Shown: in pieces, positions 1,327 through 57,383 of the stretch
Layout of the letters: each line of letters opens with the position of its first letter
Position numbering within the stretch: the first letter of the stretch is position 1
NCBI GenBank assembly: GCA_027604505.1
Contig: JADIIX010000095.1
Location: forward strand, 1 to 64,000
DNA: 64,000 nucleotides
Origin: Gonapodya sp. JEL0774
Lineage: Eukaryota
Reading direction: 5' to 3'
Translations under genes and position numbers: made by a program
The notes under the pieces: model-generated
The model's database searches: none
What the model was told of the DNA's origin: nothing
What the model saw: only the letters and a program-made list of their open reading frames with translations

Positions 1327-3475
1327 ATGCATGAGCGTCAACTCTCGGATCTTCGCGATGGGTCCCTCCACACCTCATCACTTCCCGGGGACACGCTCGG
1401 TCACCGAAAGGACCGAATGTCCGCACTGAGTCGTTTTGCTACTTGCGGATCGAATGATTTTTCCAAGGAGGAGGTCATTGCGGGGAAGAGGAATACGAAA
1501 CAGAACCCGTCGGATAGTACGGGCAACAACAGTTCCGACAGTCAACCCAACGGAACAGTCTCCACTCCAGACTCAAGTAACACCCTAGGTGCACTATCGG
1601 AGTACCTTGAGGACAATCATTCTTCAGTGGGGCGAACAGCCACCTCAAAACTTGGTGGCCGAACCCTGTCTCAATGCGTGAAACAACTTTCTTTGGATCG
1701 AGACCGGGACTTCTTTGAGTCTTACCACCAACATCCCACTGCTCGGACGTCATCACCCAGGCACCAGAATTGTGGCAACGGTGAGGCAGATGGGACGGAA
1801 TGTGCAAGCGACGCATCGACAATCCACTCCAGGACCCAGTACGGAAGGTTGGAATACCCGGATGTTCAAGGCAACCGTACCAACAAGATGGAGTTCCTTA
1901 AAGATAATAAGGTACATTAGCGTCTCGCTGCTTAATACCAACCCTTCGCACTAGTTCAGAAGAGGACCTGGTTCTCGCGCCCTCCAGGTGACCACTTATA
2001 CACGACGTGCACTCACTGCTGGCATTACCCTCGCATGGACTCAAGCAATTTTCGCCATGGTCTTCACATCGGTGATGATGTACTCTCTTGAGACTGTGGA
2101 GTACAATGCCGACTTCGACAATGGTTCATCCGATACCATTAGGGTGAGCACCTCGGCAAGAATTTCAAAAGAATTCAAACCTCAGACTGCGTTGATGTCT
2201 TCTACGCCGATGCACAGTCTTTGAATCTGACCTTGAAGTCCGTGGTGTGCACTTATTTGATGACTCAGTTGGCTGGGTTTTGGCTATACCTCAGCGCGGT
2301 GAGCAGAACGAGCTGTCGAATCACATCTCTTCTCCCTTCAATTTTCAATGTACTTTTAATCTTGCTTAGATCACGATTCGGAATCAAGTAGAACTGTGCG
2401 TGTTTAACCAAAGTTTTCGTATGTGAGGAAACACTCAACTCAACAAAACCTCATCGCAGAGCCGGCTTCGCCATCTTTGTAGTTGCCAATGCATGCATAT
2501 CGGTAGCGATGACTTTTCAGCATTTTCTCATCAGATCCGACATTGCCACGCGATTTCCTGATTTTCACTGCTCCGGCTTGGACACTCTAATGCGTTACTT
2601 TGTGATCTTAAATAGTGCTCTGAGTGGGATCGGCATTATCGCGTGGGCGGTGATCATTTGGCGTATATACTTCCATCTTGATTGGAGAATTTGCTGGCTG
2701 AACAGGGCCGACGCGAAGGCAAAACGTGAGGCGTTTGGAACTGATCCCTAAGCTTATGCGCAATCGCGTTCATATCTCCGTCTTGATCATATAGGTCGTA
2801 CTTCGTTCCTCCACGTCTTTCAGGTCCTGCTTAAGATTACGACCGTGACGCTGATTGCCAACTCATTCTACTACTACATATTGATTCATGTCCCAGGGCT
2901 TGAGTGCCCCGCCACCATCTCTGGGATGTACCTCTTTGCCGATATTTTTATATCTGGTGTAATCGTTATATTCGGGCGCAGTGCGGTGAGATACGGAAAC
3001 ACCTTGACAGGCAAGCTCTCTACGATTGATTGACACCCCGTTATTCCATCGCAGTTGACGAAGCAATCTGCGGCAACGATGAAACTCTTTGTCTTGGGCT
3101 GCGTCGGACTCATTATTATCTTGGTCCAATCAGAGTTCGACCAGATCACTTACATTATCAAACAGAGCTCGTCGTCATCGCAAAGAACCGTGTCAATCAT
3201 CATCGTTGCACGTGTGTATGATATTTCTATGATCACGCTAAGTCGTGGACCTTGAACCTCTTATACTTATAATCCAGAGGGATTGTCAATCGTCACTCTC
3301 GCTATCAGTGCGATACTTGGGGCAAGACTGGCCTCTCGGTTTTCCAAAGTCTCGTATTCAGGTGCGCCAGATGCACCTCTGCTCTTTTTGGTCTCATAAT
3401 GTGACACTCAAATGTCTTCCTCCGTCCACAGAACTTCAGAGGCTGCCCACCAGCATAGACTGGTCCATAGATTAG
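1327..3475 (+). CDS. Multipass membrane protein, UPF0658-like fungal family, copy 1 (multi-exon)
   Basis: Ser-rich disordered N-terminal exon, then spliced hydrophobic exons including WRIYFHLDWRICWLNRADAKAK|RTSFLHVFQVLLK. This resembles the family motif GWxxYxxxGAD...LLK. GT-AG introns link the ORF fragments. Confidence 0.65.
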
Positions 3476-4512
3476 CAGTTTTCTGAATGTTTGCGACTCT
3501 TCGATGGAGGTTTGGCAAGTTTTGGACCAGCATATTCTATTACCCGGCACGCCAATCACTCATGTAGCATGTCATTCACTTATTATTAATTTTGTAATTG
3601 TAATTTATGTAGTGTAGCTTTCGGAGAGTTCTGATGTCTCGTTGAAAGTGCGAGGCAAGGGTGAGCGGCGTCAGTCTTTGTGGCCGTCGGAGTGATGATG
3701 ATCACTTAGTGAGGGGGTTCTAATCGTATTAGTGATCACCACCATTATGTAAGCTGGCTAATAATTATACAGATTCCCAACGAGGCGACAACGAGAGCAT
3801 TTATAGGTTCATCTCCACGGTATTTTCATCAGCACAAGAAACGTTGGCCGGGTCATGAACTGCGAGAGTGACAGTGTGCAAGTGATCGTGTCGTCGGGTC
3901 CCCTGGAGATCAACAGGGATCTGAGGGAGGGACAGAGTTTGGAGTTGGACGTTTGGGAATTACAGTAGGAAAGGGCATCACGGATAGAATCAATTAATCT
4001 AATGAAGACCTCTCAATTCTAGTGCAAGCCATCTCTACAAGTGAGCGCCCAACTTTCAGTTCATCAAGCCCCATCGGTCGCAGCGCACGGCACAAACAGT
4101 AAACAGGAAAGCCGCCACAAAAGGGGTGGGTAAAAGCTCTCATGACAGATCGCTGACCACCCACACAGTCGTCATATGTGGATTTCTCCTTTGGCCAACA
4201 GATATTATCGAATGGAGTTATGCAGTTCCGACTCTTGTTCATGGCCGGCCAGGCGGCGATAATCGAAAACCAAAGCTCTCAACGTATTATATCCCTCAAT
4301 CATTTGGTTGTGTGAGAGTGTATGTTGCCTCTAGGATGATTCTGGGGTGCACCTCATGACAGCAGGGTGAGGGGGTTTCAGGCCAAGAAGACCGATTTCG
4401 TGACCCAAAAATAACACACAAATCCAAGTGATTGGGGACAGAAGCACAGACGCTGCACAAAAAAGCTTGTTCTTCTTGGGCATCAGTTCCTTGTCATCCC
4501 GATCCCAAAGAA

Positions 4513-6634
4513 ATGACCCCAATCCATGAGCAGCGGCTCTCAGATCACAATGTCACACTCCACGTCCCATCATTTGCCGTTGACAGTCTCGGTCGCCGAA
4601 AAAGCAGCATATCTGCACTGAGTCGCTTCGCTACTTGGGGGTCGATTATATTTTCGAAGGGGGAGGTTGCGGAGGAGAATACAGGTTCTGCGAACAGTTC
4701 CAATCAACCAAATGGAACTGTCTCCACTCCCGAATCGACAACCTTGGGTGCAGGCTTAAACCGACTATCAGGGTACCTTGAGGACAACTGTTCATCTGTT
4801 GGTCGAACGGCCACATCAAAACTTGGTGGACGGACACTCTCTCAGCGCGCACATCGCAACTCTTGGGACCGTAATCAGGATGTCTCTTACCATCAACACT
4901 CCACTGCCCGGGCGTCATCACCCAACGAGGAGGAGCACGGTGATGGTAACAATTTCGAAATGAAGGCGGCAGAGTGTGAAAGCGGGGCGTCTACAATTAT
5001 CTCGAGAACTAAAAACTTAAGCTCAGGAAACGTGGATGTTCAAGGCAACCGAAAAAACAAGACGGAGTATCTTAGGGATGAAAAGGTACGGGTTGCTGCT
5101 TAGCACCGACTCTATACAGTGACTGGAATCGGTGCTCTATTTCATGCCCGCTAGATGACGCCATATACCCGCCGGGCACTCAGCGCCGGCATTACTCTCG
5201 CATGGACACAGGCAATTTTCACTATGGTCTTTGGATCGGTCATGACATATTCTCTGGGGACTATAGAGTATGATGCCGACTTCAACGAGGGGTCATCAGA
5301 TACCGTTAGGGTGAGCACCTCAGCAAGAATCCCAAGAGAATTCAAACCCCAGACTGCACTGATATTTTGTACTCCGATGCACAGTCCTTAAATCTGACGT
5401 TGAAGTCTGTGGTGTTCACTTATTTGATGACTCAGTTGGCGGGGTTTTGGCTCTATCTCAGTGCAGTAAGCTGAACGAAGGAGCGAACTGTTATTCTTGT
5501 CCCGTTCACTATCCGCATTACATTTTGTCTAGGTCACAACTGGGAATCAAATAGAATTGTGCGTGACGGAGAAAGTGTTTCCTGTGCGACCATCAACAAT
5601 ATGATAATCGATACTCCATCACAGAGCCGGCTTTGCAATCTTCGTAGTCGCCAATGCATGCATATCGGTAGCGATGACTTTCCAGCATTTTCTCATCAGA
5701 TTCGACATTGCAACGCTCTTCCCTGGATTTCACTACCCCGTTTTGGACACGGTGATGCGGTGGTTTGTGATTTCAAACAGTGCTTTGAGTGGGATCGGCG
5801 TTTTTGCTTGGGTAGTGATTATTTGGCGTTTGTACTTCCATCTTGGCTGGAGAATTTACTGGCTGAACGGGGCCGACGCGAAGGCAAAACGTGAGGCGTT
5901 TGGAACTGATCCCTGAGCTTATGCGCAATCGCGTTCATATCTTCCTCTTGATCATATAGGACGTACCTCGTTCCTCCACGTCTTTCAGGTCCTGCTTAAG
6001 ATTACGACCGTGACGCTGATTGCCAACTCATTCTACTACTACATATTGATTCATATCCCTGGGGTGGAGTACAGTGCCACTACATCTGGGATGTATTTCT
6101 TTGTCTTCGTTGCCATATCTGGTGTAATTGTTTTATTTGGACACAGTGCCGTGAGTTTGTGATTAGTTGATCAAACGAGTTCCGCTTCAATGCTGAGCTT
6201 TAAATTAACTTCTCTTAGGTGACGGAGCAGTCTGCAGCAACAATGACGCTCTTCGTGTTGAGCTGCGTCGCACTTATTATTCCCCTTGCACAATCGGAGG
6301 TCAGCCAGTGCAAGCATATCATCAACCAGATCACACCGTCATCTCGAAGAACGTTGCCAATAACCGTTATTGCACGTGTGTATAAGTTCTCCTGTGGTAA
6401 GGTTGGTTGCGAATTCGACCCTTCCGTTTGATGTTATCCAGAAGGATTGTCGATTCTCACACTATCACTGAGTGGAATACTGGGGATGAGGCTGGCTTTT
6501 CTGTTCAGCAAGGTCCCATATGAAGGTGCAGTGATCTGCTTCTTCTGCTGTTTCAAATTGTTGACCAACCCGTTTGGTCTCCACTGACAGAGATTAAAAA
6601 GCAACCCACCAGCGTAGAATGGACGATAGTATAA
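4513..6634 (+). CDS. Multipass membrane protein, UPF0658-like fungal family, copy 2 (tandem paralog)
   Basis: Same exon structure as copy 1; LYFHLGWRIYWLNGADAKAK...QVLLK; last exon ends TSVEWTIV*. Confidence 0.7.
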
Positions 6635-10524: not shown

Positions 10525-13500
10525 CTACACGGACACCTGCTCCTGCTCTTTCGCCTTCCTCGTACTCGGGGTAGGGCCCGACGCGAAGTGTGCTGTGCAC
10601 GATTTGAACAATCTGCCAGGGTTACCACCCGAAATGATGTGCGAACGACTGGCGATATCGGGGGGAGTAGGGGAGTGTACATGAGAACGACAGAAAACAC
10701 CGTCGCGAACCCCTGTCGCGCCAAACGTGCACCGCATCGTCGCACAGCAACTCACACCACCAGCTCCTGACCCAGCGTGACGCCTCCGCCTCCCTGCTGC
10801 CTCATCACTTTGGCATCGATGTAGTACCTCAACAGCCCCTCCACCTCTTGCCTACTCAACACCGGAACCTCGAACCTGACCAAGCCCGGAATCTCTTTGA
10901 CCTCCTTGGCCACCGCGTCCATTTTCGGCGAGTGCAGGCCGACCACCTTGGTAGGATCCGGTACGCGGGCCAGTACCATGGCCGGGTCGTAAGGGGACGA
11001 TTTCCGCGGCGGGGCGGCAGAGACCGTGGTTTGTGCGTCCTTGGCGTTGATGATGGGCGCGGAGGCGAGGAGGGACTTGAGCGTGGGACTCTGGACCAGG
11101 GATTCGGACCCGTTGTCGGCGCCGATGAGGACGGCGTTGTGAAGGGTGGTTTTCCCCAGGAACGGGTTCAAAAAAGGTCGGACGAGGGAGAGGTGGGTCG
11201 AGGGGAGCGGCTCGTTGGTAAGCGAGGTGTAGGATGTGGTGGAGAGGAGTGCGGGGAGGGAGTCAATGGCGAGGAGGAGGGGGGGGCGGCTGGAAGATGG
11301 AAGAGAGAGTTTGGAAGGGGGAAGGTGTAAGCAACGTCTCGCAATCGAAAGGTGAGCGCATTCGACCGTCGCTGCATTTCAAATACCCCACAATCCCTAC
11401 CACAACCCCACCATCACTTCCCGCTCCTCCTCGCTCCCCACCCTTCTCCCCCACACCCCTCGGCCACCCAACACCCACCTCTCGTTCTCCACGCCCATCT
11501 CCTCGAAAAACGCCTCGAGCACCGCGTGGGCCTGCGCGGGATCCTTTGCTCCCACGGCCAACATTTCCGCCACGTTCGTCGTACCACCACCACCCGCCGG
11601 CATCTGCGTGCGGCCAAACGTGCGGGGTTTGGAAAGGGGGATCTGGGGAAGGGGTGGCGACGTGGGAGGTGCACCGGGGTGTGTGTGAGGTAAAACCGCG
11701 GGTCAGACACCACCCCGCCCCCCGCACGGCCCTCCCCCTCCGCGGGCCCACCTTTTCCAGCACGTGTGCGTTCATGGTCCTGATATCTCCCACCACGCGG
11801 GCCGCCAAGGCCGGTTGGTCGAACATTTGGGGGTCCCCGCTCCCATCGCGGGGTTGGAAAGGCTCCATGGCAGAGGTCCATTCGGCGGCTAGGAGGTGTG
11901 CGTGTGGGGGCGCCGGGGGGAGGGGCGGGGGTGACGGGACCGGATGATGACGTTGAGGCGAGGTGCTCCATCAGAAACGAGGAACGACGGACGAGGCGGG
12001 GGGAGGGATGGATAGCGATGGGCCACGCACGGTCCATGGTCCACCACCACTCACGAAAAAAAAGAACCCAAACTGCACGGCACGGCACATGCACGACGCA
12101 CAGTGCCCTACCCCACTTTCCATCCCCACCCCCACCCCCACACCACTCCCCGCTACTCACGCCTCGCCACATACACCACGACCCACCCCATCTCACTACA
12201 CCGGGCAGCGACCTGGACGAGCGTGGCGGACTTGCCCGAGCCGGGGGGGCCGCCTTTTTTTCGGGGAGGAGGGTGCGGGTGTGCGGGGGGGGGGAGGGGG
12301 AGGGGGAGTTACGCGATGTGGTGATGACGCGGTGAGGGTGGGACCGGGGCCCTGTCGAAGTGTGTTCAACTCACAGATGACGATCTTCTCTGCCTGCCCT
12401 GTCCGGGATGCGTCCTCCCCTCCCTGCCGGTGCAGGACCCGGTTGAGCAGGGCGAGGACCGAGGGACGGAGGAGGAGGGCGGGGGAGGGGGCGGAGGGAG
12501 ATGGGAGGGTGTGAATAGGTATGAAAGTTTACTAATAACAACAGCGCGACGGACAGTGCACACGGCGCACCCGGTCCACCCGGTCCACCGGTCTACAGGG
12601 TCCACAGAGTCTACAGGGTCCACAGGGTCCACACGGCGGACACTCAGTCCGCACCACACATATCCCCACAAGTCCTCCCCCCCCCCACCACCTTCCAAAC
12701 AGCAGGCCGGGCCTTGTCCCTTCCCCCTTTCCCCCCCTGGAGACCAGAAACCAACACAACTCACGGCGGACAAGTTCTCGAGGACGATCTTAGGGGGAGG
12801 TCTTTTCTCTGTGGGAGCGGTGATGGAGGTGAGGATGGAGGAGGAGCCGGGCTGGGGGTGGGATGGGGGATGGGGGATGGGGATTGTGGGAGTGGAGTGA
12901 GGCGGAGTCAACATGTGGAGTGTGCACATCAGAGAGAGGACAAAGGGCAAAGGGNNNNNNNNNNCTTGGTCTTTTGGTTCGGCCTCGGCCACCCACCCGA
13001 ATTTGGATATGGACGAGATGACGGTCCCGTCCGCGTTCCCCCATCCCTGCCACGTGTCCCTTGCTGTGCACTCCCCTCACGCACTCCCCCCTATCGCCCC
13101 GCCCCCCCCCCTCTCGGACCTTCCACTCACATCCCTCTCCAACGCCTTCGGCATCTTCTGAGTCCCCATGCGTTTCACAAAGGTGTCTGGAAGGCGGAGG
13201 ACGCGGTGGAGGTGGGATGGGGTGGAGGTGGACTTTGNNNNNNNNNNTTTTTGTGGGTGTGTAGTGAGGCGGTGTCAACATTGGGAGTGTGCACATCATA
13301 GAGTGGACAACGGGCAACGGGGGGGTGGAAGGGGGGTGGATGCGAGGGGTGAAAGACGTACTCTGTCGCCCGCGGGTTTTTTGACAGCGACTGCAGATTT
13401 TTTGAGAGGACCGGTTATTTTCTTTTTACCAGGGACGAGAGCTGTGGGTTGGGTGGGGGGTAGGGGGGGAGAGGGGAGGGAGAGTGAGAAGAGGGAGATG

Positions 13501-13710
13501 GGAGAAGGGAGGACAGAACAGACCGAGAAGAGAAGGCGATTGATGGAAGAGTCTGTGAGAAGGGAGAAGAGAGAGGGGAAGGGTGAGGGGAGTGGGAGAC
13601 AGGCAGTGAGGGACAAAGGAAGAGGGAGTGGGAGTGCGGGGGAGGTGGAGGAGCGATGGGGATTGGGGGGATTGAAAGAGTGGGAGACACGAGTGCGAGT
13701 GGGAGACATG
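10525..13710 (-). CDS. RSM23: Mitochondrial ribosomal protein mS29 (DAP3/Rsm23); 5' end approximate, spans two N gaps
   Basis: Walker A PPGSGKSATLVQ (~12200-12250), FDQPALAARVVGDIRTMN, FEVPVLSRQEVEGLLRYY, C-terminal ISGGNP. Confidence 0.8.
12570..12632. repeat. Degenerate 9-bp tandem repeat (ccggtccac / agggtccac), intronic
   Basis: About 7 imperfect units visible directly. Confidence 0.8.
12896..13322. repeat. ~58-bp imperfect direct repeat (12896-12954 and 13263-13322) within the mS29 gene
   Basis: agtgaggcggagtcaacatgtggagtgtgcacatcagagagaggacaaagggcaaaggg versus agtgaggcggtgtcaacattgggagtgtgcacatcatagagtggacaacgggcaacggg. Confidence 0.8.
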
Positions 13711-13922
13711 GGAGACACTGCAACGTCGCATTTGTGGGGCACGCGACTCCTGCCACTGCTGTCTGAGTGTGTGTGAATGGTGTGGAGGTGAAGAACCAGA
13801 ACCGGCCAACCTGGCTGTGGTCGCTGTGGTCATCACCCTCCTCCGCACACACCACCCTCGCACTCATCAATCACACACAATCACACGCCGCAAATCCGCA
13901 ATCCGCCGCACCGCACCAAAAG

Positions 13923-15363
13923 ATGGCCGCATCCGCCGCATCGTCTCTGCCGCTGTTCTTCTCTGTCACGTTCTCAGGCCAGATCGAGTCCGCCCATGTG
14001 GGTGTTTGGTGTGCCGGCGTCTCTCACCCCTCCCGTCCCCCCTACTCAAACTGTGCCACACCCCTCTGTCTTTCCAGTTTTCCCACCACAGCGATCTCTA
14101 CTGCAAGTTTTCCTTCCTCTACGGCCCAGACTGGGTGGTGGTGGCGGTGCGTACTCACACACGCACACCCGCACTCGATTCCCCCCCTCCACCACACTCC
14201 CCCTTATTCACCCCCTCTCCACCACCCACCACCACACTCCCCATACCCTCTCCAGGGCCTCGAAGAAGGCCTCACCCAAATGGCAAGCCCTGGTCCTGGC
14301 CCTGACTCCGCCTCAAAATCCTGCGTATGGAACTTCCCAATCGAAATCACTTTCAAGTCCACAAACGCTTTCGGTGCGTGCCTTTGTGTTGCGTCCGGCG
14401 TCCGGCGTGCGACGTGCGACGTGCGCCATGCGCCGTGCGTTGGGTTCTGGTTTCGGTTACCGCCCTACCCCAAAAGCCAACCGCTCAACCCCTCACCCAC
14501 CCCTTCCCCCACCCCCCCCCCCCCCCCAATCCCCAATAGGCTGGCCCCAACTCATCCTCTCCGTGTACGGCCTCGACAGTTTCGGCCGCGACGTGGTCCG
14601 CGGGTACGCGGCGCTCAGGATGCCCACAAAGGGGGGGAGGTGGGTCGCGGGCATTGTGGGGAGGTGGGGTGGGCGGTCGAATGGGGGCGGGTCGGATAGG
14701 GTTGAGGACACGTGTCGCAGCGGTGTGGTACCGTGTGGTACCGGGTGGGAACCATCACCCTCAGGGGGGGGGGCGCGTCGCAGCCTGTCGGAGCGTGTGA
14801 CACCGTGTGGTACCGTGAGGTACCACCGCCTTCATCACACTCTTTTGCGGGGCGGAGTGCCTCACCACGTACACCTAGTCCCACCACACTCACCACCCAC
14901 CATTTCCCCATTGCCCCCGTACCAGCACCACCCGCCATGCCCCCCTCTTCACCCCGCTCGCCACGTCCCCCTTCAACTACTACCTCTCCTGGCTCGCAGG
15001 CCGGCTGCCAGAGTTCGTCGACCCGGCGTTCGTGGGGAAGGGCGAGGGGAGGGGGGGTGGGTAAGCGGGGGGCCGGGGGGCCGGGGGGCCGGGGGGGGGC
15101 GCGGCCGTGTGTGTTTTTTTGGACTGGGGTGTGAGGTGGCCGTGCCGTTTGCTCACCATTGTTCCGCCCGCCCGCCCGCCACGCACGCACGCACAAAACT
15201 CTCACGCGCGCAACGCACCCCCCACCCCGCCCCGCGACGACAATGCCGCCGCCACAAAGTCACCCGTGTGACGAGCGCGGGGTCGGTCAAGGTGGTCGTC
15301 CACGCGTTGCAAAGGGATGTGGAGAGGTTTGGGTATGCGGTCGGGGTGGGGGGGGGAAGGTGA
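13923..15363 (+). CDS. B9D1: B9 domain-containing protein 1 (ciliary transition zone, MKS module)
   Basis: [79 protein letters not shown]. Confidence 0.93.
14720..14828. repeat. Intronic 10-bp repeat cluster (gtgtggtacc)
   Basis: Two pairs of gtgtggtacc/gtgaggtacc units inside a B9D1 intron. Confidence 0.7.
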
Positions 15364-16500
15364 TCGGGATTTGGGCGTGTGGGGGGGAGGGAGGGAGGGG
15401 GGGGGAAGATAGAAGGGGCGAAGGGGGGAGTGGAGTGGAGGGATGTGACGTAATTTGGTTTCTTGCTTCGTTGGTGTATTTCTTTCTTTCGTACAATGAT
15501 TATATATGTTTGTGTCATCACGGTGCACAACCTCGCTTCCTCGGTTTCTGCAAACCGAAGCGTCTGTCAAACCAGACTCGGCTGGTGTGTTTTCGCTCCT
15601 ATTGTACCCGGTTCCCTTCCACCACTGGTCTTGCACCGTGCACGACCGCAGGAGGAAACCGAAACCCGCCTGGCCTCTCGTCACTCTATTGAAAACAAAG
15701 CCTCCCTTAGTAGATGGCGAAATCTGCAAGGACCAAAACACCTACCGAAGAATCCCCCTAGGGCGCTGGTGAGCGCCTGCTCATAATTGCATGTCCAATC
15801 TCAGGGCTTTCTGCTCTCATCCGCTTGTGCGCAGCTTCGCACGACGAACTTCATCTCTCGCTATGAGATGAGCCCGCCTGAGTGACGGATGGTCTCTCAA
15901 GGACCGACTGCGCCTCTGAGCGTCCTGCCGCCTCCCACCGGCATAGCCCTCACGGCCAGTGCTCTCAAGAAACTCGTATATACAAGGCAGGTTTCATCAT
16001 TCAATCCGTGCTCGATGCTGCCGAGTGAAGCCTGTCCGGAGGAAGTTCGCGATCCCGGACCCACGTCTCTTCGAAAAAAACCCATTCACTAGGCCTGATT
16101 CGGAGAGGAATGGCAGACTCTGACCACGTCTCAGAGGCTACACCATGACCGCGTCTCGGGGTGTAGGGGGACGGCACAAACCAACGGCCTTCTGCTCCAA
16201 AGGCGCTTCACTTGGCGGCAACAGCGGGGTTTGGCACATTGATACGTGCATTTTGCCTTTTTGCAGAAAGACAAGACCTTACCACAATACTTACGCTGGA
16301 CCAAGTCATTGGGGAGAAGATAGATTTGAAGTTAGGCGTAGCTCCGAATCAGTGGACGCCTGAAAGTCTCGCCTGCGGCTCACACAGCACACATACATCG
16401 CAAGCCACACCCCGCATTACATGATCTCTTCCGACCGCTCAGGTTCCCGCATCACCTGAGTTAGGGAGACTTCAACATTAGCATCGACCACCTCTTGCAA

Positions 16501-24567: not shown

Positions 24568-26965
24568 TTACATCACAGAGCAACGATCACGATCCATTTG
24601 TTTCCCATACTCTTTTGATCCCCGTTTCGAAGATGGCGCTGATGGAGGGCCACCCCCACCATGTACTTCCCGCATCATCAATTTCACTTCATCGTCAGTC
24701 AACTTTTCTCCTCTGGCCATAAGCACAGACATCTCCGAGAGAAGCACCTGCCACGCTCTCGCCTCCCTTTGCCGTTGTTCATCAGAGATATGAGCTCGTA
24801 CAACGCCGATCGCGTAAACAACGCCTGCGACCATGGCTTTGTAGTCCTCCAAGGTTAAACCGAGTTTGGCTTTGTGCATGTGCCCAATGAGGAACAGATC
24901 CGCCACCACCTCCCGATGATTTCTCCCCAGAGATCGGTGAGTTTGTGTGGCAATGGTATCAATAATTTTTATGAAGGGGAAAGACTCCGGAGAGCTGTAC
25001 AAGCGCTCGTAGGCTGAAAACATGAGCAACCCGGTCGGAAAAAGACTCATGCTCTCACCACCATCGCATCGCACTCACAAGCACTTTGTGAAAACAAGCA
25101 TTCTTTTGTGAGCTTACCCTGCACGCGCAGATGGACAAGGACATCAAACCACAGCGCGAAAAGAAGCCGAGGAACTCTTGATTACTCACAAACAGGTCTG
25201 TCGCATCATCCCTTTTGATAGCTGACCAGCTCGTCACCACATCATCCATCTGTTTCTTGGTCACGTCGACAGTCAAATCTTCCCAGTGCCCCTTCTTTGA
25301 GTTAATAAGCGCATTCCAGTCCATATCCAGTTTCAGATAAGGCACTTTGACACTGGCGGTGTGGAAAGAACGTTGTTCAACCGAAACTCGTGATTCAGAA
25401 GGAGTAGCGTGGGCGCTAGACATGGGGGGGACCTGATTTGCTGAATGTACCGAACGGGAGGGCTGGACAGAGGCAGCTCCGGAGCCTGGTCCATTGCTGG
25501 GAGGAATCGAGGCAGCATCTGAATTTGCAGTGTTTGGTGGTGTTCGCAGTCTTTGGTATTGAAGGAAATGCGTGTTCACTCGGATCTCTCTTTGAGAGGG
25601 GTTGAAATACCTGCCAACTGGCACTCACTTGATGACCATGGCTTTGAGAAGCATGTTCTGGGGCGCGTCACCGTCAGAGAAGGCTTGTTCGAAATCTTCC
25701 GGCGACAAATCAGCGAAGCGAACCATCCTCCACAGGGAGTCGGTTGCAGTATCTCCGAGACCCTGGTGTGTCACGATGTAGTTGCGAACCACCACGTACC
25801 CCGCTGCCGCAGAAAGTATCGTATCACCGTGCTCGTCTGGGAGCGATCCATGTTCAACAGTCGCTCGGAACAATTCCGGAGACGCCGCGTTGAGCGAACC
25901 GGGTTCCGTCGCAAGCTTGTTAGCAAGCGCTCGCAACACAAACTGTCTAGGCACTTGAGGATCGTGGTAAGCCGCTTCAAGGTCCTGCAGCGACAAGCGC
26001 TCGAATGGCACCTGAGACCACAGTGCGATGATGTTGTCTTGGTCCAGGGCGTCGGTTGAACGGGATTTGATAGCAACATATCGTCGCACCAGGTCGAAGT
26101 TCTTTCCCAGGTCTGCGTAGCCAGCAATGGTAGCAAACGCCTCAAAGGAGGTATTGGCAAGAGTCTGGTCCGATGCTTCGCTGCCCATGATGCGTTCCAT
26201 TAGAACGCTCATGGCCCTTCGCTCAATCGTAGGCACCCCCCATGTCCTTGCCTCCTGCGCAATGACGTGTAGCTCATCAGTGTGAGTCGTAGGTTTGTCG
26301 ATGGCCGTACGCAAGAGGTTATCAGCATAGGCGTTCAGGCGAGCGAGCCGGAATATTTCCGAGACCCGGTGGATTCCGATAACCTGGTCCCACTTGGTCT
26401 CGGGCAGCGTGACCTCTCCGTCGTCGAGGCTGTAAATCCACCACAAGCACAATCCGAGGACTTCATGCCGCGACTTGTGGGCAGGGAGGATTGGGACGTG
26501 GTAGATTGGCAGACCCTTGGAGCTGTAGCCCGGGACGGGACCCGGGGCGTTGAAAAGGTCATTAAAGAAAGGGCTTCGGTATGCGAGAATGATTCGATGT
26601 ACCGGAAGAGATGATATCTGAAAAGTAGACAAAGGTGGAGCAAGGAGAGTACCCCATGTGAGGCAACATCATGGAACGCAGGATCAATACCTGCCCACCT
26701 TATTGTCGGACGTTCGAATGTGAAGGAGAGCATCTGCAAATCTTCCTTCTGTGAGAAATGGAAGGAGGCCCGAGGTACTGACGCTTCCCATAGAGCTTGA
26801 ACCTGCCACAGAGCTCTTTCTGGAAGATTCATACGAAACGGTAGAGAGAAGAGTCTGGGAGGCATGAGAAGGGTGACCGGCAGGCAGTTGACCCTGCGAG
26901 GAGTGAAAGAGTGCAAAGTCGCCCGGCGATTGCGGGGACAGAGGCCGTTCGCCGTTTCCCATCAT
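24568..26965 (-). CDS. BTB/POZ + two BACK/NPH3-like repeats + C-terminal globin-like domain (paralog A)
   Basis: BTB: GRFADALLHI..LPVHRIILAYRSPFFNDLF. C-terminus after splicing: VTKKQMDDVVTSWSAIK..LFGKLTKECLFSQSASYERLY..IGHMHKAKLGLTLEDY..AWQVLLSEMSVLM. Confidence 0.85.
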
Positions 26966-30009: not shown

Positions 30010-32544
30010 ATGCCGTCCAAGAAGAGAAAGACAGGAACTGGAGCATCAGCCCGCGGTGATGCTTTATCTGTCTCCGCCTCCACGCCACGGGCCAATACGG
30101 AGGAGAGATCTGGGGAAAATACTTTGAAGCTCATCGCTCGCTTGGAGCACGAGTTCACCACATCACGAACGAATGCGAACAACCTTTTGGAACTTTTGAG
30201 CATTGCAGTAAGCGGAAACATGGCGCTTCTTAGCTCCATGTGCCATTAACCATCTGTTTTGCAGAAATCCGAATCAAATCCTGAAGTCGTACATGCCGTT
30301 CTCCAGTCTCTTCAACGCATATTTGTGGCATTGCTAAAGGATGGAGAGCTGGACAAACCTTCAAAGAAAAGTGTTGGTAACTCCGAGGAGCTTGGGATGG
30401 CAGGCAAGCCCAAGGCTCAGAAGAGGAACCGTGATGGAGAAGAAGCAGATGCACTTGACAACTCGCCCGAAGTAGCCATACGCAGTTGGCTTCGGAGGAC
30501 ATATTCGGAGTATCAAGAGGTACTTCTAGTTTCTTTGAGAAGTGATGAAGCTGCTGTACAGGTGAGCATTTCGGAGAAATGGAACTACAAAAGTGCTGGC
30601 TTGAGGTTTCTATGGAACAATTATATGCCACAAGGTCACGTTGGAGCAGATTTTCTCATGACACGTGCAATAGATTGGGTGGATGGCGTCTGTCGCACCT
30701 CCTTGAGTTACCTACCGCACTCATGATGATGTTTATCAGCTTCTCGCGCTTCGCCTGTTCCTCGCTCTCGTCAAACTCTCCACCATCCGCCTCTCGCACC
30801 GCTCTCGCTCTTACTCCTTCGACGCCGCCCTTATGTATCGCGCAGTTGAGGCGCTCGTCCTCGTTATGGAACCGACCCAGACAGATACTAAGAAAGTGGA
30901 GGACCGAAACGATGAACCAGTTGGGGACACGTACACGATAAAAATGAAAAAGCGTGAGGCGAAAAGGAGAGCAAGGTTCGAGGCTCATCTGGGACCAGCA
31001 ATTGTCGAGGCGGCAACAAAGTGGGATGATGTGAGATTGTTTCTGTGGAGAGGTGTAACCAAGGCATGCGATAACTGGACAACCGAAAGTAATGCTCAGA
31101 AGGTGAAAGCCACAATCTTTGAGATGTAAAGCGGAAACACTCTATAATTTTATTTTACTCTCGCTCTAGGCGTCGACAATCCCACCTACAGCTCCGTCCA
31201 CTCTCTTCTACATTCTTTCCTCTCTCCCTCCCCCATCGTCAACCCCTCCCGCCTCCTTTTTGGCTGGTGACCCTTCGTCCTTCCACAAGAGCACCAGCAA
31301 ATCTGAGCCCCCCCAAGTCCTGGACCCTGACATCTACAAGCGCGCCTTCTCTGACGCGTGGCTTGCCCTGCTCCGTGTGCCTCTGGATGATGCCACACTA
31401 GAAGAGGCCCTCGTGGTAGTGCACAGGAGGATCGTACCTCACATGACGGGTCCAGCGAGACTTATGGATTTCTTGACCGCCGCGTACGACTCTGGTGAGC
31501 AGTTGTCTGTGTAGTTCTCAAGAATCGCTCCGCTTGTGACACGAAACGTCTTCTTGGGCTCTTATGCCCAATGCTCCCGGATGGTAGGCGGCGTGTTGTC
31601 GATATTGGCCCTCAACGGTGTATTTGCGCTTGTCCAGCATCACAATCTGTGAGTCACGAATGAGTGTTCACATTCCTAGACGCCTCCTCGAACAGCGCGA
31701 CGCGAGTAATCCTCCTGTGATTTGGTTCTAGGGACTACCCAAATTTCTATCCCAAGCTGTACCGGCTTCTTGATGAAGATCTGATGCGTGTGAAGTACCT
31801 CTCTAGGTTCCTGAGGTTACTAGACCTATTTTTAAGTTCATCGTAAGTTACCGCCAAGACAGAGAAAAGGGAGCAGATCAACTCAATGATACTCAACATT
31901 CCTCCTGTTCTTATCCTGAAGTCACCTACCAGCCTACCTTGTCGCCGCCTTCGCTAAACGCCTCTCGCGACTCCTCCTTCACGCACCCCCGGCGGCCTGC
32001 ATTGCCGTTCTTCCCTTGATTCACAACCTCCTAAAACGACACCCAGCGTGCTTAGTCCTCATTCACCGATCCGACGCACAAATCGCCGACTGGCGCACAC
32101 AGCTTGTTGCAAAGGGTGGGACAGGCACGGGGTACCCCGATCCTTACGATCACACAGAGCAAGATCCAGCAAAGTGTAACGCGTTGATGTCGTCGTTGTG
32201 GGAGGTCAAGACTATGAGAAATCATTACTTGCCAGCGGTGAAAGGCCTAGCGAGGGCGTTTGAGGACCGGATGGGCAGGGAGGAGTTTACCCTGGAAGAA
32301 TTTTTGGACGAGGATTATGTAACGGTATGTTGTCCGTTGAGTGGTGAGGGATTTCGGTGGTGGAAAATAGTCGATAGCTGATTATGTTATGGGCAAACCC
32401 CTCCGCCAGCTGCTTGAAGCGGAGTTATCACGGAAGATGAAGGTCGATGCCCCACCCATTGGTGCCAAAGTAGACCTGAGCTGGATTGAGAAGGACAAAC
32501 AGTTCGCGAGCATTATCAAGGAGTGGAAGAGTGCCAAGAAGTAG
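30010..32544 (+). CDS. NOC4: Nucleolar complex protein 4 (CBF/Mak21 family)
   Basis: YKRAFSDAWLALL, LMDFLTAAYDSGGVLSILALNGVF, DYPNFYPKLY, HLPAYLVAAFAKRLSR, DPAKCNALMSSLWE. Confidence 0.93.
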
Positions 32545-32679
32545 TGAATTAAACTCATGTGCGATGGGTGGTTGCTGACCAAAGTCACGATTGTAGATCA
32601 TTTGTAAATTATACATTCTGAGTTTGCTCCTGATAGTCCTGACAAGTTCGTTGATGGGGTTCTCTTACCGAGACAGGCC

Positions 32680-33212
32680 CTATCTCTTGCCTCGCTGTGC
32701 ATTCGCGTAAACAATTTTCCTGTTATTTTGCGCTCTGATATACGCCCTTGAAGGCGGTATTGACCCATCTGACGATCCTGCCTCGTCACCCCAATCTCGA
32801 TCCTTGCGCTTCACCTGGTTTGCAAGGTTGAATACCCAAGGGGGACTTCAGAAAAGACCAAAACAAAAGCACTATAGTACCTGCGCATCAAAAGAGAGTA
32901 ACAGGGACAAAGCACAGCTCACTATTCTGAATCGTCCATTGCAACTGGGTCCGACTTCCCAACGAGGAAATTGAGGCCCTTCAAGGGTGTGCCTTTGGGG
33001 ACGGACGATTTCGGGATAGAATCAGCAATGGGTTGCTGCGAGGATGTGGAGTATGCTCTGGGTACAGGTGCATGTTGGTTTGGAGTGGGACGTACTCGAC
33101 AGAGTTGAGATGAAGTAAGATAGGAGACGATTGATGGTGGAGGAAGGAGTAAAAAAGACACAAGGGGGGCTCGGGAGGAGTGACGTGTGAGGGGAAGGAG
33201 AGAGCAGGACAT
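32680..33212 (-). CDS. MRPL37: Mitochondrial ribosomal protein mL54 (start approximate)
   Basis: SSVPKGTPLKGLNFLVGKSDPVAMDDSE-Y|PPWVFNL across one intron; Arg/Ser-rich presequence-like N-terminus. Confidence 0.85.
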
Positions 33213-33365
33213 GGGGGGTAAGAAGTAAGTTCAGAGTTGATGTGTTCGTGAGTGACATACAAAATATTGTCAACAAATCCTTTGAAACCACCGGAAGAAC
33301 GCATTATCATAATATATTCGTGGCAGCATTCCCTCGTACAAGCTAACGCTACCTTGTGTATAGAG

Positions 33366-33486
33366 CAATACAACCCTTTCTTTCTTCTCAATACCTCACT
33401 TTCCCGAGGAGTTGTCGTTAAACAACCAACGCCTCAGTGCCCATGCGGGATTTTGAAAGTGTCGGTAATCATACGGAGTTGATTGT
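33366..33486 (-). promoter_or_regulatory. Candidate eukaryotic SECIS element in the 3' UTR of the FrnE/DsbA-like gene
   Basis: Minus strand: helix I caat-caactc / gggttg-t-attg; core AUGAU (AUGA at 33472-33469) with UGAG (33390-33387); helix II UACC-GA-CACUUUC / GAAAGUG-A-GGUA; unpaired AAAA directly after helix II; about 120 nt downstream of the stop codon. Confidence 0.7.
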
Positions 33487-33590
33487 CCACATCCACACAA
33501 GCTTCGCAATATCTTGCCAAGGAACTGGTCCCAAATCCAGATCACACCGCGTCATCACAGACATCCATGTCAAATTCACCAAGAGCAAGT

Positions 33591-34823
33591 TCACTTCTTC
33601 TCAGCCAGCTCCTCGATGAGCTCTACCAAGAGATCCGGCGGCTGAGCTCCGCTTAAAGCATACTTCTTGTCAAAGATGAAATAGGGGACGCCGGTCACGC
33701 CACGCCGAGGCCACGAGTTGCACTCAGCCAGAATTTGTGCGCGATCAGCATCAGTGGAGAGATATGCATGGATTGTTTGGCGGTCGAGACCGACCTACAA
33801 ATAATCTTGCTTTAGAACAACGCGTACAATGGTGGCAGCAAATTATCGTACCTTGAGGGCAGCATCAGCTAGCACATTGATATCACCAATATTTTTCGAT
33901 TGTTCGAAGTAGTTCTTGAAGAGCTCCTCTATCAATGCGTCGGTCTTCTCTTTGTCCACAAGCTTGTTCTGAACGTACTGTGTAGATAGATTGAAAAAGG
34001 AGACACCCAACGCGCGAATAGCCAGGGCGGGAAGACCGAGCGTTAAGAAGTTGGTTGCTCAGTGTTCCTCAACTGTTTTACTCACACTGATGAGCCTGTG
34101 ACTGTCGATGGTGCTCGCAACCACTTCCAAAACGAGAAGTCGATCGACCACTCATCACCATCGACGAACCCATCAACAGTTCAGCTAATTCCAACTTACA
34201 ACCATCGTAGGTGAACTCAACGCCATCTGCGCGACCAGTCGCGATCATCTGCGTTGTCATCTTCTCAAAACGTTCTTTACCAAACTTGCGGTAGTAATTT
34301 TCGCGCTTTGGGATTCCTTCCTTGGGTAAAGTGGGATCTAATTGGAAGGGATGCCAAGTAATGGAGTACTTGACTTCAGTTCCGTTTTCGGCCACTTGAC
34401 GGAACGCCTAAAAGGGAACTACTGAGCGGAGTGCGACTTTCCGCAACCACTACTAGCTCACCTTTTCGAGTCGGCGTTTGCCCTGATGCAGTTATGAGAT
34501 AGATTAGAGATGGAACAGGTAGTGATGTCAGGAATAATTGACCAGTTGCCCAGAAAGCACTCGTACATCTCTCTCTCACAAGGAAGCACCAGGGTCAAAC
34601 AGTGTCAGCTATTTCCGAACAACATAGCCAGAGGGAACATTTCGGCACGCAGTTAGTTCCCAGTTGAGTGCCACGCACGATCGGAACCTAATGGAATCCC
34701 GTACTGACAGACAATATCGATTGTTATTTCCTTCGATGACATGAAGATTTTGCGAGTGCTGATAAGCGATGGCTTGAGGGTGAAGTTGAAGCGGGTGAGA
34801 GATGCCCTGAGGGCAAAGTTCAT
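33591..34823 (-). CDS. FrnE/DsbA-like thioredoxin-fold oxidoreductase with UxxC active site (probable selenoprotein)
   Basis: Spliced: ITIDIV-S|DTV(TGA)PWCFL|GKRRLEK|AFRQV..ITWHPFQLDP..STIDSHRLI..GVTGVPYFIFDKKYALSGAQP. The TGA is at 34597-34595. Confidence 0.9.
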
Positions 34824-34941
34824 GAAAAGGTGCGGGGGGTGATTTGTGCCTGGGGACTTCATGTGAGGTGTCACTTCGTTCCTCCACCACTTTCAAAGTT
34901 GTCGTCAGTCACTCATCATGAGCTCCAAACTCTACCACAAA

Positions 34942-36142
34942 ATGAAAGGCGGAAACCTTTTGAAGCCCAAGCGGGTTAATGTCCCTCCAGAGCAACGATT
35001 GAAGAACCCAAAAATTCTCGTTGGAGATCTGGTTGGTTCATTTCCCATTGGCATCTCATTTGCGTGATAAATCAACCTCATTCCTCGCTTTGCTTCCCTC
35101 TGATTACTCCTGTTGGGTGTTGGACCATGTTGCTTCACGTTATTCTGATAATCACACAAAGGTGCAAGTCCTGAAAGGCTCCGCAGCCGGCCAACAGGGC
35201 AAAATTGTGCGCATGGATCGAGATAGAGGTCTTGTCTTTGTGGAAGGCGTTGCCAAGGTCAGTAGCTTCGGAATTGGTATCCTCACTTAACATCGCACAG
35301 TCTGGCAAAATTCACCAAATGACTCCCTTTTCTGTAATCAATGAAAATTTTCTTACCAGCGCCTGCATCGAATAGCTCCCAATCCGCAGTTCCCCGAGGG
35401 CACGACGGTAACACTGGAGGGGGCACTCCGGTATAGCAACATCGCACTCGTGGACCCAGTGCACAAGTGAGTGGAAAGCGAGAAGACAATGAAATACGAA
35501 TCAGCGAATATGAGCGAAATGGGATGTGACTTGGAACGGCAACGCCGTCTAGACCACGATTTGAAGTGTCTCGCTAGTGCAGGAAGCACAGCTGGGTACC
35601 ATTGAGGCAAATCTCCAACGAGTTTAGAGATATCTGGAGCGTGTGCTTTGTAGTGGCCTTTACTGCCCACATTGCTCGGCTGTGACTGACTTTCAAATTC
35701 TCATGTGGATTCGAAAGAATACCAACTAAAATCACGTACGCCGCCGCCCAACATCCGGGCACCGGCCTAACCCGCAAATACCGTGTATCAAAACTCTCGG
35801 GAGAGGTAATACCATTTCCAGAGAAGGAAGACCCCACCAAGGATGCTGTAGGTGAGTGTAACGCTGTGTATGAGGAAACTCGAATGTATGAGTTTCCCGG
35901 ACAAATGTGTGGAACTGTTCAGTTGGATCCTACCTTTTATAAAATTTGTGACTCATTTGTTTCTCTTTGTGATTTGTTCGGGTGTTGCGGTCTTAACCCC
36001 AGAGGGTCCCCGTGACACCACTTCCCGCCTCGTCGACCAAATCACCTTCACGGCCACATATGACAAGCCCCCTCTGCCAGTACCTTTGCTCAACGAGATA
36101 TTCAGATGGGAGCGACACGGTAAAGGCGGAAGAGGCTTCTAG
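34942..36142 (+). CDS. MRPL40: Mitochondrial ribosomal protein uL24m (KOW motif)
   Basis: KILVGDL|VQVLKGSAAGQQGKIVRMDRDRGLVFVEG, EGALRYSNIALVDP, RVSKLSGEVIPFP, EGPRDT, PPLPVPLLNE. Confidence 0.9.
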
Positions 36143-36447: not shown

Positions 36448-38972
36448 CTACATAACTCTGCATTTCTTGTTCGCCTCCGGTCCCTTAGCACCCGGTCGTA
36501 CCCGCGACCTACCCCCATCCCATGACATCCGACTGCTGTTAGACTGCGGAGCTTTTGTACCACGACCGTCCGTCCCCTCCCCATGCACAGCGCGCATGAG
36601 GGCAGACCGTTCCTGCTCCGTCATCTTTTCGCCCCTGTACATGATGGCCGACATTTCGGAAAGGAGCACTTGCCACGCGTGGACTTCCCGGGCTTTTTGA
36701 TCCGAGGAGGCATTGCCGTGAACGGCGGTCATGGCATAAACACTGTCAAGTCAGGAGAACTACTGTCTTGAACCCAGAATCCATGCAGAAAGGTACCTCC
36801 CGCAAAACCACTTACACTGAAACGGTCATCGCTTTGTAGTCGTTAATGCTCAGACGCAAGCGCGTCCAGTGCATGTTCCCAATAAGCATCAGGTCCGCAA
36901 CCACTTCTCTTTGATTCCGGCCAAGGGATCGGTGCGTCTGCGTTGCGACTGTATCAATAATTTTAACGAAGGGAAACGAATCAGCTGAAGCGAAGAGCTT
37001 CTCGTAATCTGAGGTGGGAGGTAGGAGTTCAGGCTCAGAACTTTCCAGAACAAGGCAAGCCATTCCGTGTTTACCTGGATTCTCGGTAAAAAGGCATTCC
37101 TTGGTTAGGCGCGCCTGCATAACACAGAAGACATGTAGACAAGTGGTGAAACATAATGAGTGATTTCGCCAAAGTTATATTTCAGCTCACAAACTCCTCC
37201 ACAAGTCCATCCCTCCTCAAGGCGCTCCAGCTTGCGACGACATCATCCATCTGCCTCTTCGTGATATTCAGAGTCAAATCTTCCCAGTGATCTACCTGCT
37301 TGGACTTAATCAAGGCCGTCCAGTCTAAATCGCCTTTGGAAATGGGTGTCTGAGGATGAACACTTGAGCCGGAGATCCGAGATTTGCTGCTAATGGAGCT
37401 ACGAGCACCATCAGGACCAAAAGGACCTTGGGGACCATGAGGAGAGGAGGGCGGTGTCATATGGTCACCGTAATAATTTGACGAGGGTCCTCTTTGAGAA
37501 GACCCCACGGTAGGAGGGGGCAAACTAAGTCTGATGGAGGAAGAGCAGTCAAGACATGAGGCAATTTGGCAACGCAAGTCGATGCCCCAACTCACTTTGA
37601 GAACATCGCTTTGAGCATCATATCCTGGGGAGCTATTGCTTCCGCAAACGCCCTTTCTAGCTCCTCTACAGATAGATCCACGAATTTCACCATCGTCCAC
37701 AGTTCTAGGCGCGCCCTCTCATCTACTTCCTGGTGGTTTAGTACGTAGCCTCGAATAACGCCATATGCCTCGGGTGCTCGTAACGCCGAGATACCCGCAG
37801 CGTTGGGAGTTGTGACTTGCTTTATCAGAGACCGGAAAGCGTCTGGTGACATCGCCAGAAGAGCCGCAGGATTGTCCATAAACTCCGGGAGTGGGGGCGC
37901 TTTAGGTACTTCTGGCATCACTGGCTCCATTTCCGACTGATTGAAAGGTACCCGCGCCCACAAAGCATCCGCCTGTTCCCGAGACAGTGGCTTGCCTGCT
38001 CGATGCTTGGCATCTGTATAGCGCTGAACGAGGCCGTAATTTTTGACTAGGTCCGCGTGCTCCAGAAGGCTGGCGAAGGTGTCGTAAGAGGTGGCGGCAA
38101 GGGTGGCGTCAGACGCATCGGAGGACACCACATTCGCAATTAGAGAGCTGATGCAGGTAGTTAATGTTTAGATGAATCGTTTGTGCGGAAATATCACCTA
38201 TGTGAGCTCACTCCATTGCCCGATGCTCAATATCTGGGCAACCCCAAATTCGGCCCTCTTTCGCTATTGTGTACAAATCGTCCGGCAGAGTGCTCTGATG
38301 TTCAATGGCCGAATGCAGGAGGTGTGCAGAGTAGTCGAAGAGTGTGCCTAGTTGGAAAAGATCGGAAATGCGATGGATGCCGACAACCTGATCCCATTTT
38401 GTATCCGGTAGTGTGAGTTCGTGCTCATCCAGACTGTATATCCACCAGAGACACAATCCTAAGACCTCATGCAGGGAAGGATGAGCAGGAAGTACGGGTG
38501 TTTGGTAAATGGGAAGCCCCTTGGGACTTATGGTGGGTTGAGTGGAAGAGAAGAGCTCATAGAAGTAGGGACTCCTGTATGCGAGTACGATTCGGTGAAT
38601 GGGCAGAGAGCTCGACTAAGATTGGAAAGCAACCCGAGTAGGGGAATAGATGAGCATCAGCTTGTGTCGAACCTTCAGTGTCGTCCAAACCTGTCCCAAT
38701 TGAGGGCGGCAACGATTTACCTTCTCCTCTGTCGTTTTTATCTGCAGCAGAGCATCAGCAAATGTCCCTTCCTTCAAGAATGGCAAAAGTCCAGACAAAT
38801 TGCCCGGCATCGCCCCCCCTGTACCACGGGCTCGTGCCTTGCCCGGTGCAGTGGAGGTTCCCGACATCCTTCCGGTATTCGATGTTATTGTGTGCTGCGA
38901 TCCAAGAGAGTTGCGCGATGAGTAGAGAGTCGATAGCGTTGAGTCGTCGGTGCCCCCGTGACTGGCGAGCAT
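36448..38972 (-). CDS. BTB/POZ + BACK/NPH3-like repeats + C-terminal globin-like domain (paralog B)
   Basis: BTB: GTFADALLQI..LPIHRIVLAYRSPYFYELF. C-terminus after splicing: ITKRQMDDVVASWSALRR..EEFARLTKECLFTENPDYEKLF..LIGNMHWTRLRLSINDY..AWQVLLSEMSAIM. Confidence 0.85.
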
Positions 38973-39105
38973 TGGTTGAGGAAATCAGCTTTCCCTATTC
39001 CATGTCCGCAATGACGAGTGGCGTTCAGTTGTGGACACGAAATGCTTGCAGGGAAACCGACAAACCCGCAAAGGCAATTGCAAATATATTTAAATTTCTG
39101 TTCAT

Positions 39106-55566: not shown

Positions 55567-57383
<1,817 letters not shown>

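What the first reader, a model, noticed from the sequence alone, without database searches (positions are those of the whole stretch)
33591..34823. Probable fungal selenoprotein: FrnE/DsbA-like oxidoreductase with TGA at the catalytic Cys (UPWC)
Seen: exon 1 ends ATC GAT ATT GTC T|gt (34709). A 29-nt exon at 34608-34580 reads CT GAC ACT GTT TGA CCC TGG TGC TTC CTT, and a 21-nt exon at 34482-34462 gives GKRRLEK. Together they encode IDIVSDTV-*-PWCFLGKRRLEKA, and no other lesion is evident in the downstream exons. Known: FrnE/DsbA-like proteins have SDxxCPWC here, Sec typically replaces the first Cys of CxxC, and Sec use in fungi is limited to a few early-branching lineages. Inference: the TGA encodes selenocysteine. 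I do not recall FrnE/DsbA among the reported fungal selenoprotein families, so it may be an addition. Gene predictors would probably truncate or skip this micro-exon.
Basis: partly seen in the sequence, partly recalled or inferred. Interest (0 to 1): 0.92.

Follow-up and report, generated by a model that had tools for sequence, protein, structure and literature searches.

The report
Likely fungal selenocysteine FrnE oxidoreductase
A redox-enzyme gene of the water mould Gonapodya has a UGA stop codon exactly where its catalytic cysteine should be; it is likely read as the rare amino acid selenocysteine, which would add a new family to the few fungal selenoproteins, but a recent nonsense mutation or assembly error is not excluded.

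Summary
A seven-exon FrnE/DsbA gene has one internal stop, TGA at 34597-34595, giving SDTV-*-PWC, and no stop-free splice path restores a Cys. The gene matches a named Gonapodya sp. JEL0774 protein whose public model skips this exon. Its congener G. prolifera is one of the few selenocysteine (Sec)-using fungi.

For Sec: the family uses TGA at this column (102 of 103 metagenome loci with the pattern are FrnE; 28 of 47 eukaryote-type ones show a SECIS-like hairpin). A random nonsense change would hit this codon about 1% of the time, and the protein shows no decay.

Against Sec: 35 of 35 other named fungal homologues have Cys, including the G. prolifera orthologue and paralogue. No canonical SECIS lies downstream, although only 5 of 16 published fungal selenoprotein genes had one. 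The genome, the Sec machinery, raw reads and RNA could not be tested.

Verdict: Sec about 0.62, recent nonsense allele or assembly error about 0.28. It is a new member of a known selenoprotein family, with no fungal report in my searches. The scan had not noted it elsewhere, but had logged a similar fungal TGA that was judged a nonsense mutation.

The parts
34709..34823 (-). Exon 1: ATG1 at 34823, a 27-aa basic presequence-like leader, ATG2 at 34742, then the start of the thioredoxin-fold domain up to IDIV-S
   Evidence: P0001 also starts at ATG1
34742..34823 (-). Predicted mitochondrial targeting peptide (5 R/K, 0 D/E, 6 S/T) before the second ATG; suggests two isoforms
   Evidence: composition; similar leader plus second Met in P0235, P0008 and P0020; targeting inferred, no predictor run
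34707..34712 (-). Alternative donor GTCTGT (4 of 6 consensus matches, against 5 of 6 for the donor at 34708) used by the public model to skip exon 2
34580..34608 (-). 29-nt micro-exon 2 encoding (S)DTV-*-PWCF(L), the active site
34595..34597 (-). In-frame TGA, codon 43, at the first Cys of CxxC; likely selenocysteine
   Evidence: column is Cys in 35 of 35 other named fungal homologues and TGA in 102 of 103 pattern-selected metagenome loci
34462..34482 (-). 21-nt exon 3 (GKRRLEK)
34200..34407 (-). Exon 4
   Evidence: 100% to P0001, 79% to P0002; weak DSBA hit, E 7e-4
34086..34123 (-). Exon 5 (LVASTIDSHRLIS)
   Evidence: matches P0001
33852..33977 (-). Exon 6
   Evidence: matches P0001
33591..33794 (-). 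Exon 7 with Cys204, the GVP loop and the terminal TGA
   Evidence: DSBA 30.9 bits, above the 25.6 cut-off
33100..33590 (-). Putative 3' UTR region. No canonical SECIS; the best relaxed hairpins (33310-33269, 33555-33503) score at chance level

Best explanation
The gene is an intact seven-exon FrnE-type thiol-disulfide oxidoreductase with an in-frame UGA at its first catalytic cysteine, and that UGA is likely read as selenocysteine, giving a predicted U-P-W-C active site. Shown: the exon structure, the position of the UGA, the family and the fungal placement. Inferred: exon 2 is spliced in. The eukaryotic Sec system reported for the congener G. prolifera (tRNA-Sec, eEFSec, SBP2) recodes the UGA, using a 3' UTR signal that does not fit the canonical SECIS. 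The Sec43 selenolate attacks substrate disulfides, Cys46 resolves it, and a thioredoxin reductase re-reduces the enzyme (by analogy to Deinococcus FrnE, whose C-terminal CxxxxC is absent here). Two in-frame ATGs would give mitochondrial and cytosolic forms. On the tree the UGA is either one recent Cys-to-Sec gain or a retained Sec with several independent conversions to Cys in relatives.
For: (1) The TGA is the only lesion and sits exactly at Cys1. It is 1 of 90 single-base routes to a stop, a 0.7-1.1% share. (2) The genus includes one of five (later nine) Sec-using fungi among about 1200 genomes (10.1101/314781; PMC10573291). (3) The family is a selenoprotein family at this column: 102 of 103 pattern-selected metagenome loci are FrnE homologues. 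28 of 47 eukaryote-type ones carry a SECIS-like hairpin, with 88% of cells paired and 6 of 7 pairs changed on both sides (the alignment was fitted to the model). Sec-DsbA/FrnE is described in Ciona, amphioxus and prasinophytes. (4) No decay: 50 of 59 conserved columns are kept in both Gonapodya proteins, the relative-rate test is not significant with 7 outgroups (p 0.14-0.80), and the micro-exon and leader are intact. (5) Only 5 of 16 published fungal selenoprotein genes had a detectable SECIS.
Against: (1) 35 of 35 other named fungal homologues have Cys. These include the sister orthologue P0002, the paralogue P0003 and Sec-using Bifiguratus P0006; the unnamed relative P0235 also has Cys. Protein databases under-report UGA forms, but these four are plainly Cys. 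(2) None of 60 TGA loci placed on the tree falls among the fungal rows. (3) No SECIS was found by a scanner that finds 19 of 47 controls, nor by a covariance model that finds 11 of 38 held-out loci. Relaxed candidates are matched by 33 of 90 background tiles. (4) The preprint saw no Sec-to-Cys conversions in fungi, and Cys-to-Sec gains are described as hard without a SECIS already in place (PMC7539508). (5) The branch is longer than its sister's (0.31 vs 0.11; 0.22 vs 0.15), and lineage-specific changes are more numerous with 6 of 7 outgroups, though not significantly. (6) Sec machinery is not shown for this genome.
Confidence: 0.62

Rival explanations
1. The TGA is a very recent TGY-to-TGA nonsense mutation (one isolate or allele) or a single-base assembly error in an ordinary Cys FrnE gene. 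It happens to lie in a genus that uses Sec.
For: Most parsimonious on the tree: one change among all-Cys relatives. No SECIS found. The congener has two FrnE paralogues, so redundancy is possible. A slightly longer branch. An earlier scan note (e1-9714198, unchecked) reports this kind of event in a non-Sec fungus, so a large scan does turn such cases up.
Against: It needs a hit on 1 of about 90 stop routes, in a rare Sec-using genus and in a family that uses Sec at that very column. There is no second lesion or loss of conserved residues. No second FrnE from this strain appeared or 72-74; this is weak, since one search also missed known members.
Confidence: 0.28
2. The gene is functional without Sec. 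Either the UGA is read through with Cys or Trp at low level, or exon 2 is skipped through the alternative donor to give the catalytically dead in-frame protein of the public model, or it is a relic of a Sec gene after recent loss of the machinery.
For: An in-frame skip exists (P0001). Non-Sec UGA readthrough without a SECIS is documented for insect SPS1 (PMC4561486 passages). A hairpin follows the UGA in the spliced mRNA (-18.8 kcal/mol vs -14.9 +/- 3.0 in shuffles, not significant).
Against: The skip donor is weaker (4 of 6 vs 5 of 6) and exon 2 remains highly conserved as protein. Skipping deletes the whole active site. There is no RNA evidence.
Confidence: 0.1

Closest known systems
Sec-containing DsbA/FrnE selenoproteins of Ciona, Branchiostoma, Micromonas/Mamiellophyceae and marine bacteria (PMC2874816, PMC6627142, PMC3965025; passages read)
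   Same: Same family. UGA replaces the upstream Cys of CxxC. Same DIVSDT[IV]-U-PWC[FY]xGKRRLE context as the metagenome TGA loci. Also mis-annotated in databases.
   Different: Fungal, and nested among Cys-bearing fungal proteins. No canonical SECIS detected, whereas those genes have one. The UGA sits on a 29-nt micro-exon. PMC2874816 states that no Sec-DsbA was found in its fungal group.
Fungal selenoproteins of Gonapodya prolifera and other early-branching fungi (SPS, AhpC, MsrA, DI-like, TR, SelenoU, SelenoH; 10.1101/314781, whole text read, figures and supplements not seen)
   Same: Same genus. UGA aligned to a known Sec position in an oxidoreductase. Often no detectable SECIS (11 of 16).
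   Different: FrnE/DsbA is not among the seven families. It has Cys orthologues across fungi, which the preprint did not see for its families, and the G. prolifera orthologue itself is Cys. The final nine-species paper was not available.
Deinococcus radiodurans FrnE (PDB 5CNW/5CP1; PMC8945050 passages)
   Same: Best solved relative (E 6e-47). CPWC motif near the N-terminus, DsbA-like thioredoxin fold, cytoplasmic disulfide reductase/isomerase activity.
   Different: It has Cys rather than UGA, and a C-terminal CxxxxC tail for regeneration that is absent here. The Gonapodya pair has a private third Cys (2 of 27 rows).

Membership tests
FrnE subfamily of DsbA-like oxidoreductases | DSBA-like thioredoxin domain (PF01323) with closest similarity to FrnE | tested here: met
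   exon 7 scores 30.9 bits, above the cut-off; the profile hits D. radiodurans FrnE at E 6e-47 and periplasmic DsbA only at about 1e-4
FrnE subfamily of DsbA-like oxidoreductases | N-terminal CP(W/F)C active site | tested here: inconclusive
   reads *-P-W-C; met only if UGA is decoded
FrnE subfamily of DsbA-like oxidoreductases | C-terminal CxxxxC tail (many members, not all) | tested here: not met
   only Cys46 and Cys204 are present; the tail is also absent from some bacterial FrnE
Eukaryotic selenoprotein | In-frame UGA aligned with a redox Cys or known Sec position, coding conserved on both sides | tested here: met
Eukaryotic selenoprotein | UGA conserved in orthologues | tested here: not met
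   0 of 35 other named fungal homologues; the sister orthologue is Cys. TGA is seen only in non-fungal family members
Eukaryotic selenoprotein | Canonical SECIS in the 3' UTR | tested here: not met
   none by scanner, covariance model or relaxed scan; joint sensitivity on protist-type controls 28 of 47; published detection in fungi 5 of 16
Eukaryotic selenoprotein | Sec machinery (tRNA-Sec, eEFSec, SBP2, PSTK, SecS, SPS) in the same genome | not testable with these tools
   no genome held; no tRNA in the window; present in the congener per 10.1101/314781
Eukaryotic selenoprotein | Transcript includes the UGA exon; Se incorporated | not testable with these tools
   no RNA run shown to hold the organism

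The most novel reading that the evidence does not exclude
The first fungal Sec-FrnE arose by a recent Cys-to-Sec gain on one Gonapodya branch without any canonical SECIS. This would mean that fungal Sec insertion uses a different or relaxed RNA signal, and the Sec/Cys pair of sister orthologues would be a natural experiment for finding it.
Probability: 0.25. Interest if true: 0.8.

Novelty: new member of a known kind. Interest (0 to 1): 0.5.

Why it matters
Fungal selenoproteins are known from only about nine species and, in the preprint read, seven families, and most lack a recognisable SECIS; how they are decoded is an open question. A Sec FrnE whose 76%-identical sister orthologue has Cys would add a family. 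It would let one compare two closely related 3' UTRs to locate the fungal recoding signal, and it could be a rare eukaryotic Cys-to-Sec gain. It also shows micro-exon UGA codons being erased by annotation. If it is a nonsense allele it is ordinary.

Tried and rejected
Own-genome search for Sec machinery: no genome held.

Sequencing runs: no RNA holder listed. RNA runs X2 and X3 laid 0 reads on the gene and on 19.9 kb around it, which is no test. DNA run X1 gave one 204-nt contig at 33725-33928 with 0 differences, not covering the TGA.

Rfam: no SECIS hit in the window, but also none in 20 of 20 control loci, so uninformative.

Candidate hairpins at 33555-33503 and 33310-33269 were rejected as SECIS: wrong register at the quartet, and 33 of 90 background tiles score as well. 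The UTR fold z-score is -1.77.

A hidden intron splitting the TGA, or another splice route to Cys: 0 of 1254 paths. A-to-I editing was rejected on general knowledge (UGA would read as Trp, not Cys). An old pseudogene was rejected.

Fungal models lacking the CxxC: 16 of 145 representatives had an odd or missing motif. I looked up 6 of the 16; two are named chytrids (P0226, a partial model that starts at the second Cys, and P0296), and their DNA could not be seen.

NCBIfam gave only a sub-threshold hit. MAFFT alignments A2 and A3 of SECIS candidates were poor, so the model was built from 9 of 18.

Literature: no fungal Sec-FrnE/DsbA surfaced in ten searches (listings only, unless a paper is cited as read). 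The final Nature Microbiology paper was not held, and the bioRxiv supplements and figures were not seen; either could list the family. No structure was predicted because the fold is clear from sequence.

Full report
Observation. The minus strand carries a seven-exon gene (34823-34709, 34608-34580, 34482-34462, 34407-34200, 34123-34086, 33977-33852, 33794-33591) with six GT-AG introns of 54-108 nt. It gives 246 codons with a single internal stop, TGA at 34597-34595 (codon 43), in IDIVSDTV-*-PWCFLGKRRLEKA. Exon 2 scores 27.2 bits on a motif matrix from 202 homologues; the best of 5000 shuffles of the span scores 14.4. None of 1254 stop-free splice paths between ATG2 and exon 4 contains CxxC or PWC.

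Identity. Exon 4 is 100% identical to the named protein P0001 (Gonapodya sp. JEL0774, KAJ3338140.1) and 79% identical to G. prolifera P0002. P0001 is this gene with exon 2 skipped through a weaker donor at 34712, so the public model has no active site. Gonapodya belongs to the Monoblepharidomycetes, and a B9 ciliary domain in the window fits a flagellated fungus. The protein is FrnE-type: DSBA domain, best solved relative D. radiodurans FrnE at E 6e-47. That enzyme is described as a cytoplasmic disulfide reductase/isomerase with a C-terminal CxxxxC (PMC8945050 passages), which is lacking here. A 27-residue basic leader precedes a second ATG, as in P0235, P0008 and P0020. Dual mitochondrial and cytosolic targeting is my inference.

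Evidence for selenocysteine. The preprint 10.1101/314781 (whole text read; figures and supplements not seen) found eukaryotic Sec machinery in 5 of 1197 fungal genomes, G. prolifera among them. It lists seven families, none of them FrnE/DsbA, and found a SECIS in only 5 of 16 genes. A citing paper gives nine species for the final version, which was not held. Sec-DsbA/FrnE with Sec at the upstream Cys is described in Ciona, amphioxus and prasinophytes (passages).

I tested the family directly. A pattern for D-T-[IV]-TGA-P-W-C-[FY] found 103 metagenome loci, of which 102 are FrnE homologues. 61 have at least 180 open codons from the motif and a scannable UTR; the other 42 were left out as short, cut or interrupted. 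I split the 61 by a crude motif rule, not by taxonomy, into 47 eukaryote-type and 14 bacterial-type. A SECIS scanner hit 19 of 47 (1.7 expected from shuffles) and 1 of 14. A covariance model built from 9 of these hits found 11 of 38 held-out loci at 20 bits or more. The union is 28 of 47, with strong pair covariation on a model-fitted alignment. So this column is a real Sec site in the family.

For the window gene, the TGA is 1 of 90 single-base routes to a stop, a 0.7-1.1% share. The protein keeps 50 of 59 conserved columns, the same as its sister (the exon-2 columns are excluded because P0001 lacks them), and relative-rate tests with 7 outgroups are not significant.

Evidence against. All 35 other named fungal homologues have Cys. 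In a quick IQ-TREE run (the careful search did not finish) the gene is sister to the Cys orthologue P0002 (SH-aLRT 97), next to the Cys paralogue P0003 (99), within 16 fungal rows (87) of which it is the only TGA. None of the 60 TGA loci joins them. A FastTree run adds the unnamed Cys protein P0235 as the next relative (99). Sec-using Bifiguratus also has Cys. Retention of ancestral Sec therefore needs several conversions to Cys, which the preprint says it did not see in fungi. A gain needs a recoding signal, and gains are described as difficult without an existing SECIS. No canonical SECIS was found: none by the scanner at thresholds 14 and 10 over 33590-32990, and a best score of 7 bits for the model over 31000-35600 with nothing listed in the UTR. 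The best relaxed hairpin is equalled by 33 of 90 background tiles. Rfam is uninformative (0 of 20 controls). The branch is somewhat longer than its sister's (0.31 vs 0.11; 0.22 vs 0.15). An earlier scan note (e1-9714198, not checked by me) describes a TGC-to-TGA nonsense change at an active-site Cys in a non-Sec fungus, a reminder of the look-elsewhere effect.

Not testable. No genome was held, so the machinery in this strain is inferred from the congener. No run covered the TGA or showed expression.

Weighing (judgement, not a computed result). Under the nonsense or error reading, three things must coincide: a roughly 1% codon hit, a genus among the very few Sec-using fungi, and a family that uses Sec at this column. 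Under the Sec reading, the costs are an awkward phylogenetic pattern and a missing SECIS, the latter being common in fungi. I put Sec at 0.62, recent nonsense or assembly error at 0.28, and skipping, non-Sec readthrough or relic at 0.10.

Mechanism if Sec (inferred). Exon 2 is included and the UGA is recoded by tRNA-Sec, eEFSec and a divergent SBP2 through a non-canonical UTR element. The U43-P-W-C46 site cycles between selenolate/thiol and selenenylsulfide to reduce or shuffle protein disulfides, and is recycled by a thioredoxin reductase. Cys204, shared only with P0002 among 27 aligned rows, might assist, but this is untested.

Novelty. Sec-FrnE is a known kind. A fungal member did not surface in ten literature searches, with the caveat that the final fungal paper and the preprint's supplements were not seen. 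The scan's index held nothing on this genome or sequence. Verdict: new member of a known kind, interest 0.5. The boldest reading, a recent SECIS-less Cys-to-Sec gain, has probability about 0.25 and interest 0.8.

Noticed in passing
window 33692-33690 region, codon 204 in exon 7 (minus): A third Cys shortly before the GVTGVP loop is shared only by the two Gonapodya orthologues (2 of 27 rows; 0 of the 16 TGA homologues in which the loop motif was matched); it could be a private resolving Cys.
   Followed up: partly
P0226 (Cladochytrium replicatum, KAI8810425.1): A partial chytrid FrnE model that begins at the second Cys (CFLGKRR); could hide a UGA or just a missed micro-exon.
   Followed up: no
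L001-L103, e.g. L018:842-903, L039:935-1004: Many protist-type Sec-FrnE transcripts have covarying SECIS-like hairpins, often without apical AA, that Rfam 15 does not detect (0 of 20 loci); a separate bacterial-type DT[IV]UPWCY[FI] clade of 15 rows also appears.
   Followed up: partly
window 24568-26668 and 36812-38984 (minus): Two similar stretches about 12 kb apart (BTB-like ORFs plus a shared downstream ORF piece) flank the Noc4-like and FrnE genes; they look like a local gene duplication. The Noc4 label is recalled, not from a call.
   Followed up: no
window 1177-1920 and 4432-5103 (plus): Two related low-complexity ORFs with shared peptide blocks, an apparent tandem duplication.
   Followed up: no
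window 10700-15700: A GC-rich, low-complexity stretch with two 10-N gaps (12955-12964, 13238-13247) and a B9-C2 ciliary domain gene; the assembly is weaker here.
   Followed up: partly
window 55567-56394 (minus): Acetate kinase family gene (PF00871, E 2e-21).
   Followed up: no
window 33725-33928: A 204-nt contig of run X1 matches with 0 differences, intron 6 included; it is the only real piece over 19.9 kb, so it supports no claim on habitat.
   Followed up: yes
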